The notes beneath the pieces are model-generated. The model saw only the letters and a list, made by a program, of their open reading frames with translations. It did not search any database and was not told the DNA's origin. Shown one piece after another: positions 7,271 to 62,618 of a stretch of 64,000 bases of DNA (its first letter is position 1; each line of letters begins with the position of its first letter). Made by a program: the position numbers and the translations under genes. The stretch is taken from positions 34,411-98,410 of the forward strand of contig BEHD01000005.1 of assembly GCA_002898355.1 (NCBI GenBank), given 5' to 3'. Source of the stretch: an archaeon HR01. GTDB lineage: Archaea; Thermoproteota; Nitrososphaeria_A; Caldarchaeales; Caldarchaeaceae.

Positions 7271-7674
7271 GAAGCATCTACCTGACGTCAGCACTTCTAT
7301 CAGCCGCAGGCCTACTACTCTCAATATATCTAACCCTTCTGCCACCGCCAACCTTCTGCGATATCAACAGCTTCTTCTCATGCGACACCGTTCTCTCAAG
7401 CCCCTACGCCAAGATAGGCGGCATACCCACAGCCTTCCTAGGGGTTGCCTGGTTCGCAGCAGCTACAGCACTTTCACCACTATCCATCAGGTCCGCCAGA
7501 GCCTCGAAAACCCTCCTAACGCTGTCAGTGTTCGCAGCCGCAGGCGTGTCGGTGCTGGTCTATGTCGAGCTCGCCCTGATAGGCTCAGTATGTCTGCTAT
7601 GCACAGCAGCCCACCTCCTAGGCGTGGGTGTGCTGGCCACATCCATAGTAGGTCTGAGGTCTAGCCGCGTCTGA
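7267..7674 (+). CDS. VKOR (vitamin K epoxide reductase)-family membrane oxidoreductase. Open frame with no ATG/GTG/TTG at its 5' end. It overlaps the stop of the upstream thioredoxin-like gene in another frame.
   Basis: My translation: LRSIYLTSALLSAAGLLLSIYLTLLPPPTFCDINSFFSCDTVLSSPYAKIGGIPTAFLGVAWF...GSVCLLCTAAHLL. It has the VKOR loop Cys pair (Cx7C), the S.YA..GIP.A.LG motif and the TM4 CxxC (CLLC). It is missing from the ORF track because it lacks a canonical start. Confidence 0.5.
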   Translation: MRSIYLTSALLSAAGLLLSIYLTLLPPPTFCDINSFFSCDTVLSSPYAKIGGIPTAFLGVAWFAAATALSPLSIRSARASKTLLTLSVFAAAGVSVLVYVELALIGSVCLLCTAAHLLGVGVLATSIVGLRSSRV

Positions 7675-8017
7675 CAGCCGATAGGGATAGGGATGCTGCA
7701 CTGGCCGCCACAACGAAGAAGGAGAGGAATAGGTGGATTGCTTTCGCAACCTCAGGCCCTTCGGCGAATATCACCAGCCCGAAGACACCCTGTATGATGT
7801 ATAGGGCTAGGGTGAAGGAGACATCGTTGGCTGACGTGTGCCCCGATTTCCTGGCCGAATAAACAACACCCAGCAGTATCAGGAATGTGAGGAAGCCGAG
7901 GCCGACGTGGCCGAGGGTGTAGAGCTCACCCTCAACAAGCTTCAGATTGAATGCGATACCCTGAGCGAGCTGCAGGATTGTAAGGAGGGTCACTAGGCCC
8001 AAGGCTCTGGTTATCAT
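7661..8017 (-). CDS. Small integral membrane protein (3-4 TM), unknown function
   Basis: Hydrophobic 118-aa ORF. Confidence 0.35.
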   Translation of the reverse strand: MITRALGLVTLLTILQLAQGIAFNLKLVEGELYTLGHVGLGFLTFLILLGVVYSARKSGHTSANDVSFTLALYIIQGVFGLVIFAEGPEVAKAIHLFLSFFVVAASAASLSLSAVRRG

Positions 8018-8170: not shown

Positions 8171-9649
8171 GTGGTTGAGGACATGTTCCCGGCATACACC
8201 GACGCAGGGTTAAAGCCCTGGAGCTTCACCAAGGAGCAGGTACTGGAGATAATCAAGAAGGAGGGTGTTAGATTCATAGACCTGCAGTTTACGGACCTGC
8301 CCGGTAAGCTCCAGCATATAACAATCTCCTCCGGCTACCTTGACGCTGAGATGTTCTCCGAGGGCGTGCCAAAACTGGACGGCTCTTCGATAAGGGGCTT
8401 CGCAGAGATCTACGAGTCGGATATGCTTCTCAGGCCAGACCCAACCACCTTCGCAGTTCTGCCTTGGAGCCTCGACGGAAAGAAGACCGCCAGGATGATA
8501 TGTGATGTATACCGGGGGTTCGGGGGTGGAAGGTTCTCGAGAGACCCGAGGCTGGCAGCCCAGAGGGCTGAGGAATATCTGCGGGCCCAAGGATATGAGC
8601 CGTCGTACTGGGGTCCCGAGATAGAGTTCTTCGTCTTCGACAGAGTTAGCTGGGATGTCTCCACACCCTACCGGGGGCAGAGCTACGTGATAGAATCCCG
8701 GGAGGCCCCCTGGGAGGTGGACGGCAAATCGTTCCCAATCAGGTTTAAGGAGGGGTACTATCCCACGCCGCCGCAGGATACGTTGATGGAGTATAGGAAC
8801 GAGGTCTGCAGGCTCTTAACAGACTACTTCGGCGTTGAGGTTGATGCCCACCACCACGAGGTCGCCACCGCAGGGCAGTGCGAGATAGACATGAAGTATG
8901 ACACGTTGACGAGGATGGCTGACAAAGCCCAGACATACAAATATGTTACGAAGAATGTGGCCAGCCAGATGGGGATGGTGGCAACCTTCATGCCCAAACC
9001 CATCTTCGGCGATAACGCCTCCGGGATGCATATCCACATAAGCCTCTGGAGCGGTAGCAAAAACCTGTTCTACGACCCTGACGATGACTACGCCGAGCTG
9101 AGCCAGCTGGGCCGCTATTTTGTGGGAGGACTACTAGAGCATAGCAGAGCTCTCACAGCAATCGTCACACCCACCACCAACTCATTTAGGAGGCTGGTGC
9201 CTGGTTATGAGGCCCCTGTCTTTATCGCATGGAGCAGGTCCAACCGCTCAGCCAACATAAGAATACCCGTCTACCAGAGGGGTGCTGGCTCAGCCAAGAG
9301 GAAGAGGGTTGAGTTTAGGACGCCTGACCCATCGTGTAACCCCTACCTATGTTTTGCAGCGTTAGCTGCTGCCGGTGTTGACGGCATCAAGAAGAAGATG
9401 GACCCGGGAGACCCCGTCAACGAGGACATCTACAGGCTCAGCAGCGAGAAGAGGAGGGAGCTAAACATTAGAGAGCTACCCGGCAGCTTGAAGGAGGCGG
9501 TGGAATCTCTGGAGAGCGATAGGGAGTTTCTGAAACCCGTCATGGCCGACGACCTAGTGGATACGCTGATGGAGCTGGAGATGAAAAACTTCGTAGAGGT
9601 GAGCTCTAGGCCCCATCCATACGAGTTCTATCTCTACGCAGACGTTTAA
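8171..9649 (+). CDS. glnA: Glutamine synthetase type I
   Basis: FMPKPIFGDNASGMHIHISLW and other GS signatures; 492 aa. Confidence 0.9.
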   Translation: MVEDMFPAYTDAGLKPWSFTKEQVLEIIKKEGVRFIDLQFTDLPGKLQHITISSGYLDAEMFSEGVPKLDGSSIRGFAEIYESDMLLRPDPTTFAVLPWSLDGKKTARMICDVYRGFGGGRFSRDPRLAAQRAEEYLRAQGYEPSYWGPEIEFFVFDRVSWDVSTPYRGQSYVIESREAPWEVDGKSFPIRFKEGYYPTPPQDTLMEYRNEVCRLLTDYFGVEVDAHHHEVATAGQCEIDMKYDTLTRMADKAQTYKYVTKNVASQMGMVATFMPKPIFGDNASGMHIHISLWSGSKNLFYDPDDDYAELSQLGRYFVGGLLEHSRALTAIVTPTTNSFRRLVPGYEAPVFIAWSRSNRSANIRIPVYQRGAGSAKRKRVEFRTPDPSCNPYLCFAALAAAGVDGIKKKMDPGDPVNEDIYRLSSEKRRELNIRELPGSLKEAVESLESDREFLKPVMADDLVDTLMELEMKNFVEVSSRPHPYEFYLYADV

Positions 9650-9699
9650 AAACCGGATTAAGTCCTTTTATATCAGCTCACACCATCAACAGTCAGGGA

Positions 9700-9933
9700 A
9701 TGCCATTAGCTTTTCTACTCCTCAACGTAAAACCCGGCAAGGAGGAAGACGTCTTAAAGGCGCTCGCCGAGATTAAGGAGGTGAAAGAAGCCCATCGGGT
9801 ATACGGTGTCTATGACACCCTCGTGAAGGTTCAGGCGGATACAATGGAGAATCTCAAGAGTATATTAAATAATAGGGTGAAGAGGATCGAGAACATCACC
9901 TCAGTCGTCTCCCTCATAGTGACCTCGGGTTGA
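9700..9933 (+). CDS. Stand-alone RAM/ACT-like (Lrp/AsnC C-terminal ligand-binding) domain protein, 77 aa
   Basis: The beta-alpha-beta-beta-alpha-beta pattern LLLNVKPGKEEDVLKALAEIKEVKEAHRVYGVYDTLVKV is typical of an AsnC-type RAM domain; no HTH is present. Confidence 0.5.
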   Translation: MPLAFLLLNVKPGKEEDVLKALAEIKEVKEAHRVYGVYDTLVKVQADTMENLKSILNNRVKRIENITSVVSLIVTSG

Positions 9934-11507
9934 GTAGGAGATTCACCATACCGGCCACGGAGTCGGACCATATAGAGTTCAAGGAGAAGCTTCTCTCCTC
10001 CGTACATCTCAGGCCTGAGAAGATGCAGAAGCTGGCCAGCCAGATGAAGCACAGGCTCCAGATGGGGAATGGGAAGGCCGTCTATGTCTTGGGCGTGAGC
10101 GATGATGGCAGGAGTGTTGGCCTCTCCGAGATTGAGCTGGAGGAGAGTCTGAATGTTTTGAAGGCTGTGGCCATCGAATGCGGTGCCGTGATAGACAGGG
10201 TTGAGCGGTTTGAGGAGAACAATTTGTCGATTGCCAAGGTGATAATCTCCAGCGTCGCTGAGCCTAGCAGAAACCATATAACAGTTGCTGTGGCGGGTCA
10301 TGTAAACCACGGCAAGTCAACTCTTCTAGCCTGCCTTATAACAGGTGAGCGGGACGATGGAAAGAAGTGGCTCTACCTAGACACCCTACCCCACGAGGTT
10401 GAACGCAACCTCTCGGCCGACATACATTTCGCCCTTCTCGGCTTCAACGGCTCAAAACCTATACTGCTGTCCAACCCCCTCGACAGGGTGGAGCGCAGCC
10501 GTGTGGCAGGTGAGGCTCAGAAGCTTGTGAGCTTCGTGGATACTGTAGGGCATGAGCCATGGCTCCGGACAACCATCCGCGGGATTCTGGGCCAGGAGAT
10601 AGACTACGGCATACTGGTTGTGGCTGCGGACGACGGCCCAACCCATATTACGAGGGAGCATCTGGGGATAATGCTGGCCACGGGGCTTCCAGTCATAGTC
10701 TGTATCACCAAGTCCGACAAGGTGGCTGCTGAGAGGCTGGAATACGTTGTGGATGTTACGGGAGGCCTTCTCAAACGTGTAGGCCGTATCCCCTATGTCA
10801 TCAGGCGGGAGGAGGATATCAACCTAGTCATGGACAAGCTCTCAGTGGTGGTTCCAATAATCAAAACCTCCTCAGTCACCCGTGAAGGCTTCGACCTTCT
10901 CTACTCCATACTCAGAAGCCTACCAGCCCGTCCTAAGGTCTCTGACAAGCCTCTCCTACTCTACATAGACCGGGTCTACAACGTGGAGGGTGTGGGCAGT
11001 GTTGTCTCTGGCTCTGTCAGGCAGGGCAAGCTGACGGCTGGGAGCGAGGTTCTTGTGGGGCCAGACCCGAAAGGCGTCTTCAGGATGGTGAAGGTGAGAA
11101 GCATAGAGACACACTACGCCCGAATCCCTGAGGCCGAGCCGGGATATATCGTAGGCGCAGCCTTGAGGGGTGTGAAGCATGAGCTCCTCCACAGAGGGAT
11201 GGTCCTATGCGACCCAGCCCTAAAACCTCAGGCAGTCTACAGCTTCGAGGCCGAGGTCACGGTCCTATCCCATCCCACACGGATCGGCAACGGATACGAG
11301 CCGGTTCTCCACTGCCACACGATAGCCTCATCCGTCAAGCTAACACTCTTGGATAGGGATTATCTGAAGGCTGGCGAGACGGGAAGGGTTGTCATGAGGT
11401 TCAAGTATAGGCCTTGGTATGTCGTGGAGGGTGATAAGTTCATCTTCCGGGAAGGCAAGACCAAGGGTATAGGGACGATAACTAGGATTCTAGAAACAGC
11501 GGGCTAG
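9930..11507 (+). CDS. EF-Tu/EF1A-family translational GTPase with a roughly 110-aa N-terminal extension (GTPBP1-like). TTG start overlaps the upstream stop (tTGa).
   Basis: G1 AGHVNHGKSTLLACLITGERDDGK, G3 DTVGHEPW, NKxD-like TKSD, followed by beta-barrel domains 2 and 3. Confidence 0.7.
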   Translation: MSRRFTIPATESDHIEFKEKLLSSVHLRPEKMQKLASQMKHRLQMGNGKAVYVLGVSDDGRSVGLSEIELEESLNVLKAVAIECGAVIDRVERFEENNLSIAKVIISSVAEPSRNHITVAVAGHVNHGKSTLLACLITGERDDGKKWLYLDTLPHEVERNLSADIHFALLGFNGSKPILLSNPLDRVERSRVAGEAQKLVSFVDTVGHEPWLRTTIRGILGQEIDYGILVVAADDGPTHITREHLGIMLATGLPVIVCITKSDKVAAERLEYVVDVTGGLLKRVGRIPYVIRREEDINLVMDKLSVVVPIIKTSSVTREGFDLLYSILRSLPARPKVSDKPLLLYIDRVYNVEGVGSVVSGSVRQGKLTAGSEVLVGPDPKGVFRMVKVRSIETHYARIPEAEPGYIVGAALRGVKHELLHRGMVLCDPALKPQAVYSFEAEVTVLSHPTRIGNGYEPVLHCHTIASSVKLTLLDRDYLKAGETGRVVMRFKYRPWYVVEGDKFIFREGKTKGIGTITRILETAG

Positions 11508-12745
11508 TTCTTCATCCGTGCCAGCGTGAGGAGGGCGGCGGACTGAGTCGCCAGTATGTAGGCTATAACGACCTGAGATGGGGCTCCGAAATCCATTAAC
11601 ATCCCATATATCACGCCGCTGAGGAAGGCTGAAACACCCAACCCGGTGTTGAGAAGCCCGTAGGATGTGGCCGTACCACCCATCTCCGACACAGCCGCCC
11701 TATATACAGACTCTTGCATACCCAGAACAGAGCCGAAGAAGGCCGCCGAAAGAAGTAGCGTGAAGAAGTCTTGGGCGAGGAAGGCGGTAGCCGAGGAAGG
11801 TATAGTCAGTATCAGGGGTATTGCTAGGGTCTTCAAGCCGTATCTGTCGTATAGGAAGCCTACGGCAGGCGCTACAGCCATGTCGACCAGCTGCACCACT
11901 AGATAGATTAGCGGGACGAGATATGTCTGCCCCGACGGCGAAAGTATGGCCGAGGCCCTGTAGAGGATGAGGGGCGCATATACCAGCCCCACCGAGTTGA
12001 GGGAGGCCAGCAGAGTGAGGAGTCCAACACGGCCGGCCGGAGCCCCGCCACACCCAACCTCTGGCTTGACGGCTCCAAGCCTTCCATAGGCTACGGCCAT
12101 GATTGCAAGGAGCGCTGCATAGGCTGGAAGGGTTGAGGCGAAGGCCACACCATATCCTCCGGGGAATAGGGCCAGCAACACCAGCATAAGAGCGGGCCCA
12201 GCTACAGCTCCCAGCTGGTCCACGGCCTCATGCAGGCCGAAGGCTTTCCCAGCACCCATACTCCGGCTGACTGCTGAGAGAACGGCGTCCCGTGGAGCTG
12301 TCCGCAGGGCCTTCCCAAGCCTCTCCACAACTATGAGGGCTGCGGCCAATTCCCAGCTGCTGGCCAGTGAGAGGAGGGGTATGGCCAGTATTGCTCCGTA
12401 TCCTAGAAATATGAGATGCCAGTGTGTTCGGGTTCTGTCGGCCAGAGCCCCCGAGCCAAGCTTCACAACCTGCATCACCATCTCGCCCAGACCAGTCACA
12501 ACACCCACCACAAGGGCTGAAGCGCCCAAAACTCTCAGATAGTCGGGTATGATGCTTCTACCACCCTCGTAGATGAGGTCTCCTAGAAGGCTGACAAGTC
12601 CTAGGAGCAAGACAGCCCTAAAACCTCCCATCATCCAGAAGCCACCCATAACATCCAACAACAAACGTGTTGGGAGCGGCCTGCGACACCACCATAGCGT
12701 ACACAACCAAAAGCATAAATAAATACCCCCCACATCCAAGGCCAA
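11504..12745 (-). CDS. Major facilitator superfamily transporter
   Basis: 12-TM pattern, 413 aa, MFS-like loop motifs. Confidence 0.65.
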   Translation of the reverse strand: MALDVGGIYLCFWLCTLWWCRRPLPTRLLLDVMGGFWMMGGFRAVLLLGLVSLLGDLIYEGGRSIIPDYLRVLGASALVVGVVTGLGEMVMQVVKLGSGALADRTRTHWHLIFLGYGAILAIPLLSLASSWELAAALIVVERLGKALRTAPRDAVLSAVSRSMGAGKAFGLHEAVDQLGAVAGPALMLVLLALFPGGYGVAFASTLPAYAALLAIMAVAYGRLGAVKPEVGCGGAPAGRVGLLTLLASLNSVGLVYAPLILYRASAILSPSGQTYLVPLIYLVVQLVDMAVAPAVGFLYDRYGLKTLAIPLILTIPSSATAFLAQDFFTLLLSAAFFGSVLGMQESVYRAAVSEMGGTATSYGLLNTGLGVSAFLSGVIYGMLMDFGAPSQVVIAYILATQSAALLTLARMKN

Positions 12746-14111: not shown

Positions 14112-14804
14112 CTAGACTTCTATTTCCAGTTCTTTGGCTAGCCTGTATGCCTCCTCCTCTATGTAGGGTGTTACTATTAGTAATCTATCAGGTCTCTTGC
14201 CTGTGACTTCCTCGTATAGCTTGGATTTCCTCATGAATGTGGATACGTTAGCCCTCCTAACGTTGGAGGATACCTCTATCAATATGGTTTTCCCGTCGTG
14301 GATGCTTACGTCGACCTCAACGTTGCTTGGGTAGCCATAGACCACACCCTTAGCGTCTAAGTGGCTCCACCTCTCAACCCTAACACCTAGCTCCCTGCCT
14401 AAGAGACCCCTAATCCCCTCCCTGAACGCCTCCTCCGTCATAATCCCCCACCTAGCCCCCAAAGCAGAGAGCCTCCTCTCTATCAAGTCGAAGCCCCTAT
14501 TCATGTCCTCCCTGAGCTTGCCCACCTCCTCCCAAAGCTTGTTCTGACCCTCCCTAAGTGATTTAACCTCTTCCCATAGCTTGTTCTGGTTTTCTTCTAG
14601 CTTTAACATCCTCTCCTCTAGAACCAACATCCTTTCCTCTAAAGCAAGCATCCTCTCCTCCATCTTGTCCATCCTCTTGAGGACCTCGGATAAACCTAGG
14701 TAGCCTGCAACCGTGTACCTAAACTCTACGTCCTTCTCCAGCAGCTCTATGAACTCCTTCCTCAGCTTCCCAGACATCCTCTTGATTGGCCCTGAGAAAA
14801 ACAT
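14112..14804 (-). CDS. Coiled-coil protein with a C-terminal PD-(D/E)XK-like/DUF3782-type domain (crenarchaeal family sometimes annotated as chordopoxvirus-fusion-protein-like)
   Basis: Heptad repeats EERMLALEERMLVLEERMLKLEE and NQNKLWEEVKSLREGQNKLWEEVGKLRE. The C-terminus has D...EVDVSIHDGKTILIEVSSNV, resembling a D-(D/E)xK nuclease core. An isolated gene with AT-richer flanks. Confidence 0.5.
   Translation of the reverse strand: MFFSGPIKRMSGKLRKEFIELLEKDVEFRYTVAGYLGLSEVLKRMDKMEERMLALEERMLVLEERMLKLEENQNKLWEEVKSLREGQNKLWEEVGKLREDMNRGFDLIERRLSALGARWGIMTEEAFREGIRGLLGRELGVRVERWSHLDAKGVVYGYPSNVEVDVSIHDGKTILIEVSSNVRRANVSTFMRKSKLYEEVTGKRPDRLLIVTPYIEEEAYRLAKELEIEV
14529..14682. repeat. In-frame DNA tandem repeats inside the coiled-coil gene: three 21-bp units (aacatcctctcctctagaacc-like) and two roughly 39-bp units
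   Basis: Direct inspection: aacatcctctcctctagaacc / aacatcctttcctctaaagca / agcatcctctcctccatcttg, and cccaaagcttgttctgaccctccctaag / cccatagcttgttctggttttcttctag. Confidence 0.55.
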
Positions 14805-32853: not shown

Positions 32854-32927
32854 TGGACCGGGAGGGATTTGAACCCTCGACCTCCGGTGTGCAAAACCGG
32901 CGTTCTCCCAGACTGAACTACCGGCCC
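32854..32927 (-). tRNA. tRNA-Ala (anticodon TGC), 74 nt, CCA not encoded
   Basis: Hand-folded cloverleaf: acceptor GGGCCGG/CCGGTCC with the G3:U70 Ala identity pair; D stem GTTC/GAAC; anticodon stem CCGGT/ACCGG with loop TTTGCAC; T arm GAGGG-TTCAAAT-CCCTC; discriminator A. Confidence 0.85.
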
Positions 32928-62517: not shown

Positions 62518-62618
62518 GGGGGCGTAGCCGAGCAAGGCCAAGGCGTCGGGCTCCAGATCACACGGCCAAGGTCAGAGGCGCAACCCGAAGACCGTGGGTT
62601 CAAGTCCCACCGCCCCCA
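62518..62618 (+). tRNA. Intron-containing tRNA, most likely tRNA-Trp (anticodon CCA) with a 26-nt intron in or next to the anticodon loop
   Basis: Hand fold: acceptor GGGGGCG/CGCCCCC, discriminator A. D arm GCCG-AGCAAGGCCA-AGGC. Anticodon stem TCGGG/CCCGA separated by 33 nt beginning CTCCAGA (the Trp-type loop). Variable loop AGACC. T arm GTGGG-TTCAAGT-CCCAC. A canonical BHB could not be drawn by eye. Confidence 0.6.

What the first reader, a model, noticed from the sequence alone, without database searches (positions are those of the whole stretch)
8171..11507. glnA followed by a stand-alone RAM/ACT-like domain gene translationally coupled (tTGa) to a GTPBP1-like EF-Tu-family GTPase
The three co-directional genes have short gaps:
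- glutamine synthetase
- a 77-aa protein that is essentially an isolated Lrp/AsnC C-terminal amino-acid-binding (RAM) domain with no HTH
- a 525-aa translational-GTPase paralog (G1 AGHVNHGKST, GERDDGK insertion reminiscent of GTPBP1, beta-barrel domains 2 and 3)

The GTPase TTG start overlaps the RAM gene stop. Known background:
- Stand-alone RAM domains bind amino acids and can act as sensors.
- Archaeal GS is regulated by small proteins (GlnK, sP26) in other lineages.

A small amino-acid sensor placed between GS and a non-canonical translation-factor-like GTPase is an unexplored arrangement. It could link nitrogen status to a ribosome-associated GTPase.
Basis: partly seen in the sequence, partly recalled or inferred. 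Interest (0 to 1): 0.5.

Follow-up and report, generated by a model that had tools for sequence, protein, structure and literature searches.

The report
RAM sensor gene paired with aGTPBP
Three ordinary archaeal genes sit in a row (glutamine synthetase, a small amino-acid-sensor protein, and the archaeal relative of the ribosome factor GTPBP1); only the sensor–GTPase pairing is conserved, and only in one small hot-spring family, so it is a modest lead and not a new nitrogen-to-ribosome system.

Summary
glnA (8171/8183–9649), a 77-aa stand-alone RAM protein (9700–9933) and a 525-aa GTPBP1-type GTPase (9930–11507) lie on the + strand, and the GTPase TTG start overlaps the RAM stop (TTGA). The organism is archaeon HR01 (Aigarchaeota/Caldarchaeales), not Thermoproteales.

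All three genes belong to known families:
- GS type I.
- A DM1/STS042-type stand-alone RAM domain (model pLDDT 93, TM 0.87).
- The aGTPBP subfamily. Its best solved relative is GTPBP1, including the N-terminal domain. The deposited "SelB" name is wrong.

Gene-order surveys from both sides:
- RAM→GTPase is invariant in one family (HR01-like, Caldarchaeum, Pelearchaeum) and absent elsewhere. It is missing from 75/80 GTPase loci and from 65/65 more distant RAM loci.
- glnA–RAM adjacency has been broken in three ways (1.25-, 2.7- and about 5.5-kb inserts). A pair of different RAM paralogues also lies between them in most Caldarchaeum loci.
- A conserved TTTATA box about 33 nt upstream of RAM points to a separate RAM–GTPase transcript.
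- The RAM type linked to glnA in two lineages is another subfamily, absent from this window.

Verdict: a clade-restricted bicistronic pair next to glnA. A GS link is not supported, and a RAM–GTPase functional link is possible but unproven.

The parts
8171..9649 (+). glnA, type I glutamine synthetase. The ORF starts at GTG 8171. The deposited protein is 488 aa, which implies the ATG at 8183.
   Evidence: TIGR00653 572 bits (cutoff 429); Pfam Gln-synt_N and Gln-synt_C. 100% identical to 'Glutamine synthetase [archaeon HR01]', 488 aa.
9666..9673 (+). TTTTATAT, a TATA-box-like element. Its TTTATA core (9667-9672) starts 33 nt upstream of the RAM ATG. Inferred promoter of a RAM-GTPase transcript with little or no leader.
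   Evidence: TTTATA occurs only 31 times in 128,000 positions of the window, yet lies at -23 to -35 of five genes, including this one. An equivalent box is present upstream of every RAM orthologue examined, including loci where glnA is not the upstream gene. Function is inferred and not shown.
9700..9933 (+). Stand-alone RAM-domain protein, 77 aa, DM1/STS042 type ('type A'), no DNA-binding domain.
   Evidence: PF01037 2.6e-16. PDB sequence hits 2zbc (STS042) 2.8e-15 and 2e1a (DM1) 2.2e-12. AlphaFold2 pLDDT 93.3 with beta-alpha-beta-beta-alpha-beta topology. Foldseek TM 0.87 to 2zbc and 2e1a. G36/Y38/D39 are invariant across RAM orthologues and paralogues.
9930..9933 (+). TTGA: the GTPase start codon TTG overlaps the RAM stop codon TGA. 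Inferred translational coupling.
   Evidence: Sequence read directly. An ATGA overlap at the same junction in L099. Gaps of 9-13 nt in L092, L093 and L160, and 18-63 nt in Caldarchaeum and Pelearchaeum.
9930..11507 (+). aGTPBP, the archaeal GTPBP1/2-type EF1-family translational GTPase, 525 aa. N-terminal domain about residues 1-112, G domain 115-329, domain 2 356-427, domain 3 434-520.
   Evidence: Pfam GTP_EFTU, D2 and D3. phmmer against PDB: GTPBP1 4.2e-86 (292 bits) over residues 26-524; aEF1A 1.1e-30. AlphaFold2 pLDDT 86.7. Foldseek: GTPBP1 9ypo E 6.8e-56 over 507 columns; EF-Tu 1.8e-36. The SelB model TIGR00475 scores 137 bits, below its cutoff of 242.

Best explanation
The window holds two neighbouring expression units made of ordinary genes.

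Unit 1 is glnA, a type I glutamine synthetase.

Unit 2 is a two-gene operon found only in the Caldarchaeaceae-like clade (HR01-like genus, Caldarchaeum, Pelearchaeum). It consists of a DM1/STS042-type stand-alone RAM protein followed by aGTPBP, the archaeal orthologue of eukaryotic GTPBP1/2.

Inferred mechanism:
- Transcription starts from a TATA box about 33 nt upstream of the RAM ATG and gives an mRNA with little or no leader.
- Ribosomes finishing RAM re-initiate at the overlapping weak TTG start. The GTPase is therefore made from the same message without a promoter of its own.
- By homology, the RAM protein binds an amino acid at dimer-dimer interfaces and shifts between dimers and octamers, as DM1 and STS042 do. 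It acts through protein-protein association.

Shown: gene identities and folds, the junction anatomy, and the phylogenetic distribution of the gene order.
Inferred: the promoter, co-transcription, translational coupling, the ligand, and any functional tie between the two proteins.

The adjacency to glnA is most likely inherited synteny without a specific GS-RAM-GTPase mechanism.
For: Identities.

The pair is invariant within the clade.
- RAM lies directly upstream of the GTPase in the window, L001-L005, L081-L088, L092-L094 and 15 of 15 metagenome loci with RAM identity of 64% or more. Gaps run from -4 to 63 nt.
- This holds across several different flank arrangements:
  - glnA-RAM-GTPase.
  - glnA-RAM84-RAM120-RAM-GTPase.
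  - The same with a 2.7-kb insert before RAM (L081).
  - A 1.25-kb stretch without an ORF over 105 aa before RAM (L099).
  - Pelearchaeum, where an opposite-strand methyltransferase gene precedes RAM and glnA is about 5.5 kb away or not in view.
- The gene downstream of the GTPase also varies: MFS, eIF-1A, ZnuA/IS, or HFX_2341_N.

Own promoter: a conserved TTTATA-type box 27-36 nt upstream of every RAM ATG. The hexamer is rare in the window but sits at that distance from five genes.

Coupling: TTGA overlap here and ATGA overlap in L099.

Restriction to the clade:
- 75 of 80 aGTPBP loci from other archaea lack RAM and GS. 71 of them have at least 400 nt of upstream sequence.
- 0 of 65 more distant type-A RAM loci have the GTPase. 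52 of them have at least 1 kb of downstream sequence.

RAM subfamily: the window's RAM is 39-40% identical to STS042 and DM1 and 60% to P0143. It is only 34% identical to the glnA-adjacent RAM84 and RAM120.

Family biology from the literature:
- aGTPBP is a recognised but uncharacterised archaeal subfamily (PMC4342817).
- GTPBP1 mechanism (PMC12775451, PMC6120710).
- Stand-alone RAM proteins bind amino acids, change oligomeric state and form hetero-octamers with full-length Lrp (PMC2995911).
Against: - No transcript data. The promoter, co-transcription and coupling are inferred from sequence only.
- In Pelearchaeum the 46-nt RAM-GTPase spacer contains CCTATATATC, which could be a separate GTPase promoter.
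- The clade is shallow (GTPase identity 68-85%). Persistence of the pair could be inertia. Three separations falling upstream of RAM and none between RAM and the GTPase is only p of about 0.125 if the two junctions were equally likely targets.
- Lrp/RAM genes do recur near glnA in other archaea (L096 and L098; haloarchaea, PMC8229911). A nitrogen-related role for this RAM protein therefore cannot be excluded.
- The RAM ligand is unknown.
Confidence: 0.6

Rival explanations
1. The RAM protein senses Gln, Glu or 2-oxoglutarate and functionally connects glutamine synthetase to the GTPase, so the three genes form one nitrogen-to-ribosome module.
For: - The three genes are co-directional with short gaps in the window, L092, L093 and L160.
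- In most Caldarchaeum loci glnA remains about 670 nt upstream of RAM.
- Lrp-family genes recur next to glnA in archaea (PMC8229911).
- DM1 was reported to respond to 2-oxoglutarate, and DM2, Grp and Sa-Lrp respond to Gln (PMC2995911, PMC3584215).
Against: - glnA-RAM adjacency is broken in three ways (L081, L099, Pelearchaeum). Different RAM paralogues are also interposed in most Caldarchaeum loci.
- RAM keeps its own TATA-like box in every arrangement.
- The RAM type found with glnA in two lineages (RAM84/RAM120 and the Bathyarchaeota pair, 49-57% identical to each other) is a different subfamily and is absent from this window.
- The closest characterised relative, STS042, is listed with Ile as its effector and not Gln (PMC2995911).
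- aGTPBP neighbours elsewhere are tRNA and translation genes, never nitrogen genes.
- Two of four sampled GS loci outside the clade have no RAM or Lrp gene nearby.
Confidence: 0.1
2. The RAM protein is a dedicated amino-acid-responsive regulator of aGTPBP. It binds the GTPase directly, and this tunes tRNA delivery or ribosome rescue to amino-acid supply.
For: - The pair is invariant through several flank rearrangements, with stop/start overlap in two genomes.
- Mammalian GTPBP1 acts when tRNA is limiting (PMC7665888).
- Its N-terminal domain is proposed to be a regulatory brake (PMC12775451).
- Elsewhere, type-A RAM genes follow a tRNA-modification-like ThiI/NFACT-R gene in 15 loci.
Against: - aGTPBP works without any adjacent RAM gene in 75 of 80 sampled genomes from other lineages.
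- Type-A RAM genes have different partners in different lineages, such as Iso_dh, ThiI-like or none.
- There is no interaction evidence of any kind.
- Operon membership in a shallow clade is weak evidence for physical contact.
Confidence: 0.12
3. Adjacency by descent only. RAM and the GTPase are independently transcribed neighbours that have simply not yet been separated in a young clade, and the overlap is incidental.
For: - The clade is shallow, with GTPase identity of 68% or more.
- The gap reaches 46-63 nt in Pelearchaeum and some Caldarchaeum loci. The Pelearchaeum spacer has a TATATAT-like stretch.
- Neither family shows this pairing anywhere else.
Against: - Both flanks of the pair have been rearranged repeatedly while the junction never has.
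- Overlaps of 4 nt, or gaps of 6-13 nt, in the HR01-like genus leave no room for an archaeal promoter.
- The GTPase uses a weak TTG start in two genomes.
Confidence: 0.2

Closest known systems
aGTPBP / eukaryotic GTPBP1-GTPBP2 (EF1-family translational GTPases; Atkinson 2015, PMC4342817; cryo-EM of human GTPBP1, PMC12775451)
   Same: - Four-part architecture: N-terminal alpha/beta domain, G domain and two beta-barrels.
- 33% identity over 507 aligned columns to GTPBP1 on the ribosome.
- Scores far above aEF1A, EF-Tu, SelB and aIF2-gamma.
- TKxD in place of NKxD at G4, and a GE(R/L)D(D/N)G insertion after G1, both aligned with GTPBP1.
   Different: - Lacks the long disordered N- and C-terminal tails of the human protein: 525 aa against the 703-residue deposited GTPBP1 chain (9ypg).
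- No archaeal member has been characterised experimentally, as far as the searched literature shows.
- In this clade it is preceded by a RAM gene, which was not seen in 75 of 80 other archaeal loci.
Stand-alone RAM-domain proteins (demi-FFRPs): P. horikoshii DM1 (2e1a), S. tokodaii STS042 (2zbc), T. thermophilus TTHA0845 (2djw)
   Same: - 75-83 aa and a single RAM domain with no HTH.
- Beta-alpha-beta-beta-alpha-beta fold, TM 0.87.
- 36-38% identity in the structural alignment.
- The VYGVYD motif is identical to that of STS042.
   Different: - Ligand and oligomeric behaviour are untested here.
- The physiological role of the family is itself unclear (PMC2995911).
- The genomic partner is a translational GTPase. 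None of the 65 more distant type-A RAM loci has one nearby.
Lrp/AsnC regulators adjacent to glnA in haloarchaea (Hfx. mediterranei, Hbt. salinarum; PMC8229911) and the Gln-responsive Sa-Lrp (PMC3584215)
   Same: A RAM-domain gene lies next to glnA.
   Different: - Those are full-length HTH+RAM transcription factors, oriented opposite to glnA, with experimental links to glnA expression.
- The window's protein has no DNA-binding domain and is co-directional with glnA.
- It follows the GTPase and not glnA when the locus rearranges.

Membership tests
Stand-alone RAM-domain protein (demi-FFRP, DM1/STS042 type) | Lrp/AsnC ligand-binding (RAM) domain detected above the curated threshold | tested here: met
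   PF01037 59.7 bits against a cutoff of 25, covering residues 8-76.
Stand-alone RAM-domain protein (demi-FFRP, DM1/STS042 type) | No DNA-binding HTH domain; the protein is about 75-85 aa | tested here: met
   77-aa ORF from an ATG. Only RAM-type Pfam hits reach threshold. Orthologues are 76-77 aa, apart from one 80-aa entry (P0138) with a 4-residue N-terminal extension.
Stand-alone RAM-domain protein (demi-FFRP, DM1/STS042 type) | Beta-alpha-beta-beta-alpha-beta fold superposable on solved stand-alone RAM proteins | tested here: met
   pLDDT 93.3; elements E3-10, H15-23, E28-34, E39-45, H49-60, E66-74. TM 0.87 and rmsd 1.5-1.6 A to 2zbc and 2e1a.
Stand-alone RAM-domain protein (demi-FFRP, DM1/STS042 type) | Amino-acid binding at dimer-dimer interfaces with a ligand-dependent change of oligomeric state | not testable with these tools
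   Indirect only. G36, Y38 and D39 are invariant in all RAM orthologues and paralogues. The review states that backbone-contacting residues are conserved in amino-acid-binding members (PMC2995911). Assigning this motif to the ligand site rests on my own knowledge of the family.
aGTPBP / GTPBP1 subfamily of EF1-family trGTPases | EF-Tu-type G domain followed by beta-barrel domains 2 and 3 | tested here: met
   PF00009 105 bits, PF03144 40.7 bits and PF03143 35.1 bits, all above their cutoffs.
aGTPBP / GTPBP1 subfamily of EF1-family trGTPases | Extra N-terminal domain homologous to that of GTPBP1 | tested here: met
   The phmmer alignment to GTPBP1 starts at query residue 26, chain residue 103. 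The Foldseek alignment covers 507 columns of a 513-residue chain. The model has alpha/beta elements at residues 9-108 with pLDDT of about 77-91.
aGTPBP / GTPBP1 subfamily of EF1-family trGTPases | Closer to GTPBP1 than to any other EF1-family member | tested here: met
   292.6 bits to GTPBP1 against 109.8 bits to the best aEF1A. Foldseek E 6.8e-56 against 1.8e-36. No tree was built.
aGTPBP / GTPBP1 subfamily of EF1-family trGTPases | GTP-dependent delivery of aa-tRNA to the A site with slow release; ribosome rescue | not testable with these tools
   Known only for mammalian GTPBP1 (PMC6120710, PMC12775451).
SelB (the name in the deposited annotation of the HR01 protein) | Scores above the SelB equivalog cutoff and has the C-terminal SECIS-binding extension | tested here: not met
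   TIGR00475 137.4 bits against a cutoff of 242.25. The match covers only model positions 50-329 of 581, so there is no C-terminal extension.
Type I glutamine synthetase (GlnA) | Scores above the GlnA equivalog cutoff with both GS domains | tested here: met
   TIGR00653 572 bits against a cutoff of 429.15. Gln-synt_N and Gln-synt_C.
   - Absent from 75 of 80 aGTPBP loci and from 65 of 65 distant type-A RAM loci.
- glnA-RAM is interrupted within the clade.
- Three of four sampled GS loci outside the clade have no stand-alone RAM gene nearby. None of the four has one directly adjacent to glnA.

The most novel reading that the evidence does not exclude
In Caldarchaeaceae, a DM1/STS042-type amino-acid sensor has been recruited as a dedicated partner of the archaeal GTPBP1 orthologue. 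Its amino-acid-dependent oligomeric state would modulate the GTPase, for example through the brake-like N-terminal domain. Rescue or slow decoding at hungry codons would then be coupled directly to free amino-acid levels. That would be a small-protein, non-transcriptional amino-acid input into translation surveillance in archaea.
Probability: 0.12. Interest if true: 0.7.

Novelty: new member of a known kind. Interest (0 to 1): 0.3.

Why it matters
aGTPBP is among the least understood widespread translational GTPases, and the papers I found report no experiments on any archaeal member. Stand-alone RAM proteins have solved structures but no agreed physiological role.

A conserved bicistronic pairing of the two, even in one family, gives a cheap and specific hypothesis to test: does an amino-acid sensor talk to a ribosome-rescue-type GTPase?

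The work also removes a tempting but unsupported story, GS to sensor to ribosome. It corrects a SelB misannotation. It points to a different RAM subfamily as the better candidate for a glnA-linked sensor.

Tried and rejected
- Single-sequence tblastn for RAM might miss divergent copies. I repeated the scan with an iterated RAM HMM over all stop-to-stop ORFs. The result was the same, plus one unrelated full-length Lrp 4 kb downstream in L071.
- L081-L083 at first looked like a GTPase without RAM, with a 67-aa gene lacking any Pfam hit. The HMM and a direct read showed it is a RAM orthologue with a mis-called start.
- I first concluded that the stop/start overlap was unique to HR01, because the 84% relative L093 has a 12-nt gap. 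L099 then showed an ATGA overlap, so I withdrew that conclusion.
- I looked for a universal neighbour of aGTPBP. Only lineage-specific synteny appeared. The widest recurrence was Trm5/TYW2, in 13 of 80 loci.
- I looked for a universal neighbour of type-A RAM genes and found none. ThiI-like and Iso_dh partners are lineage-specific.
- The literature search for 'aGTPBP' was swamped by the unrelated gene AGTPBP1.
- An Rfam scan found no riboswitch or other RNA element in or near the cluster.
- The sigma-70 promoter and terminator scanner was not used, because it does not model archaeal promoters.
- One search failed on bad coordinates and on an over-long search term. Both were repeated correctly.


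Full report
**1. What is there**

Three co-directional + strand ORFs occupy 8171-11507.

- glnA runs from 8171 to 9649 and is 492 aa from a GTG. The deposited HR01 protein is 488 aa, which implies the ATG at 8183.
- A 77-aa ORF runs from 9700 to 9933.
- A 525-aa ORF runs from 9930 to 11507. Its TTG start overlaps the TGA stop of the small ORF, read as gGTTGAg.

The cluster is bracketed by opposite-strand genes: a 118-aa membrane protein at 7661-8017 and an MFS transporter at 11504-12745. A redoxin gene lies further upstream.

The GTPase is 100% identical to a protein of 'archaeon HR01'. Its nearest relatives are Caldarchaeum, Pelearchaeum and other Caldarchaeales. The organism is therefore an aigarchaeote, not a member of the Thermoproteales.

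**2. Identities**

*GS.* It passes the GlnA equivalog model at 572 bits against a cutoff of 429.

*The small protein.* It is a full-length RAM domain with no HTH.
- PF01037 gives 2.6e-16.
- Its best solved relatives are the stand-alone RAM proteins STS042 (2zbc, 2.8e-15) and DM1 (2e1a).
- The AlphaFold2 model is confident (pLDDT 93.3) and has beta-alpha-beta-beta-alpha-beta topology.
- It superposes on 2zbc and 2e1a with TM 0.87.

*The GTPase.* It has GTP_EFTU, D2 and D3 domains.
- It matches human GTPBP1 far better than aEF1A: 292 against 110 bits, with the alignment starting at residue 26, inside the N-terminal domain.
- Its model (pLDDT 86.7) hits GTPBP1 on the ribosome at E 6.8e-56 over 507 columns. 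EF-Tu scores 1.8e-36.
- It belongs to the aGTPBP subfamily defined by Atkinson (PMC4342817), whose archaeal function has not been tested.
- The deposited name 'selenocysteine-specific elongation factor' fails the SelB model, at 137 bits against a cutoff of 242.

**3. Gene order seen from the GTPase side**

A pattern scan of 185,579 species genomes found 570 aGTPBP loci, and the best 80 were fetched. tblastn and an iterated RAM profile find a RAM gene next to the GTPase only in L001-L005 (Pelearchaeum and Caldarchaeum, GTPase identity of 70% or more).

The other 75 loci have neither RAM nor GS within 6 kb. They include other Caldarchaeales, Aenigmatarchaeota, Archaeoglobi, Methanocellales and Methanobacteria. 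71 of them have at least 400 nt upstream and 57 have at least 3 kb.

Their recurrent neighbours are translation and tRNA housekeeping genes:
- Trm5/TYW2 methyltransferase in 13 loci from several phyla.
- An AAA_18 kinase-like protein in 8 loci.
- eIF-1A in Caldarchaeum.

**4. Gene order seen from the RAM side**

The 24 close RAM homologues are all 76-77 aa, apart from one 80-aa entry. A metagenome scan returned 80 loci.
- All 15 loci with RAM identity of 64% or more carry the GTPase 6-63 nt downstream.
- None of the 65 loci at 60% or below has any GTPase hit. 52 of them have at least 1 kb downstream.
- Only one of those 65 has a GS-like gene, on the opposite strand 2 kb away.

The next-closest RAM (P0143, 60% identical) sits alone beside Cdc6 and an acetyl-CoA synthetase. 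More distant type-A RAM genes follow a ThiI-like PP-loop/NFACT-R gene in 15 loci, or an Iso_dh dehydrogenase in 9 loci.

**5. Inside the clade, what stays together**

The arrangements seen are:
- (A) glnA-RAM-GTPase: the window, L092, L093/L094 and L160.
- (B) glnA-RAM84-RAM120-RAM-GTPase: most Caldarchaeum.
- (C) The same as B, with 2.7 kb and three genes inserted before RAM: L081-L083. There the '67-aa' gene is a RAM orthologue with a mis-called start.
- (D) glnA, then 1.25 kb with no ORF over 105 aa, then RAM-GTPase: L099.
- (E) Pelearchaeum: an opposite-strand methyltransferase precedes RAM-GTPase, and glnA is about 5.5 kb away or out of view.

The gene downstream of the GTPase also differs between sub-lineages. 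The RAM-GTPase junction is therefore the one constant, and the glnA-RAM junction is the one that breaks.

The statistical weight is modest. Three separations all falling upstream of RAM has p of about 0.125 if the two junctions were equal targets. The clade is also shallow.

**6. Signals**

Every RAM orthologue has a TTTATA-type box 27-36 nt upstream of its ATG, whatever lies further upstream.

In the window the box is at 9666-9673. TTTATA occurs only 31 times in 128,000 positions, yet it sits at -23 to -35 of five genes. That is the usual archaeal geometry for transcripts with little or no leader. I infer that RAM heads its own transcription unit.

The RAM-GTPase junction is:
- A 4-nt overlap in HR01 (TTGA) and in L099 (ATGA).
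- 9-13 nt in L092, L093 and L160.
- 18-63 nt in Caldarchaeum and Pelearchaeum.

In the HR01-like genus there is no room for a separate promoter. Together with the weak TTG start, this makes co-transcription with translational coupling the simplest reading. The Pelearchaeum spacer does contain a TATATAT-like stretch, so independent initiation there cannot be excluded.

**7. Which RAM goes with glnA**

Pairwise comparison splits the stand-alone RAM proteins into two subfamilies.

*Type A.* It contains the window's protein, its orthologues, P0143, STS042 and DM1. The members share the RVYGVYD motif. The window's protein is 39-40% identical to STS042 and DM1.

*Type B.* It contains RAM84 and RAM120, which sit tightly behind glnA in Caldarchaeum with a 6-nt gap and then a 4-nt overlap. 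They are 49-57% identical to a pair of stand-alone RAM genes 1.9 kb from glnA in a Bathyarchaeota genome. They are only 29-36% identical to type A.

The window has no type-B gene. The profile scan of all 64 kb found a single RAM domain.

Of four GS loci sampled outside the clade:
- One has a full-length Lrp divergent from glnA.
- One has the type-B pair.
- Two have nothing.

Lrp next to glnA is also typical of haloarchaea (PMC8229911). A RAM/Lrp-glnA association does therefore exist in archaea, but the window's RAM is not the type that shows it.

**8. Mechanism and verdict**

The best-supported picture is two units.

glnA stands alone. RAM and aGTPBP form a clade-specific bicistron driven from the box at about -33, with the GTPase translated by coupling.

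By homology, the RAM protein is an amino-acid-binding oligomer (PMC2995911). STS042 is listed with Ile, and DM1 with Ile, Val and other amino acids. The GTPase is a slow-release aa-tRNA delivery or surveillance factor (PMC6120710, PMC12775451, PMC7665888).

Whether the two proteins interact is unknown. I put a dedicated regulatory link at about 0.12.

All three genes are ordinary members of known families. The pairing is a small, lineage-restricted lead and not a new system.

Noticed in passing
L086:5348-5961 (also L081:4647-5260 and L003-L005); L098:6852-7426: A second stand-alone RAM subfamily ('type B') occurs as a tandem pair directly behind glnA in Caldarchaeum. RAM84 follows glnA after a 6-nt gap, and RAM120 overlaps RAM84 by 4 nt. 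RAM120 carries a C-terminal CPSC...CYFC zinc-ribbon-like tail. A pair 49-57% identical to them lies 1.9 kb from glnA in a Bathyarchaeota genome. This pair is a better candidate for a glnA-linked sensor than the window's RAM protein.
   Followed up: partly
window 9930-11507: The deposited annotation of this HR01 protein is 'Selenocysteine-specific elongation factor'. It fails the SelB model (137 bits against a cutoff of 242) and lacks the SECIS-binding C-terminus. It is an aGTPBP. Other sources call its homologues 'elongation factor 1-alpha' or 'GTP-binding protein'.
   Followed up: yes
L006, L007, L013-L015, L034, L038, L040, L048, L056, L062, L070 (e.g. L040:4832-5929): A Trm5/TYW2-type tRNA methyltransferase gene lies beside the aGTPBP gene in 13 of 80 loci from several phyla, sometimes upstream and sometimes downstream. 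It is the widest recurrent neighbour of this uncharacterised GTPase. An AAA_18 kinase-like gene precedes the GTPase in 8 loci.
   Followed up: partly
L131-L149 (e.g. L139:2807-3916); L119-L129 (e.g. L124:2844-3923): Outside the Caldarchaeaceae-like clade, type-A stand-alone RAM genes lie about 70-80 nt downstream of two kinds of gene. One is a ThiI-like PP-loop ATPase with an NFACT-R_2 RNA-binding domain (15 loci). The other is an isocitrate/isopropylmalate-type dehydrogenase (9 loci).
   Followed up: partly
L099:2755-4000: In an HR01-like metagenome contig, 1.25 kb with no ORF over 105 aa separates glnA from RAM. The nature of the insert (mobile-element remnant or RNA gene) was not examined.
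   Followed up: no
window 62518-62618 (+): Rfam finds a 101-nt tRNA (57 bits) that ARAGORN does not report. It is probably an intron-containing archaeal tRNA. The only other RNA feature is tRNA-Ala(TGC) at 32854-32927 (-).
   Followed up: no
window 8171-8183: The glnA ORF opens at GTG 8171. The deposited protein is 488 aa, which implies the ATG at 8183, and the GlnA model match starts at residue 22. A GTATAAATA stretch lies about 40 nt upstream of 8171.
   Followed up: partly
window 14112-14804 (-): A 230-aa protein with DUF3782 and a PD-(D/E)XK nuclease domain (PDDEXK_10), preceded by a short repeated MLxLEER coiled-coil-like motif.
   Followed up: no
L096:2875-3402 (-): In a Nitrososphaerota MAG, a full-length Lrp/AsnC regulator (HTH+RAM, 175 aa) is divergently transcribed from glnA. 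The layout is like the haloarchaeal lrp-glnA arrangement.
   Followed up: no
general (against PMC4342817): Atkinson (2015) did not identify aGTPBP in Thaumarchaeota. Here it is common in Caldarchaeales/Aigarchaeota MAGs, some of which NCBI labels Nitrososphaerota or Thaumarchaeota, and in Aenigmatarchaeota (DPANN). Whether ammonia-oxidising Nitrososphaerales have it was not checked.
   Followed up: no
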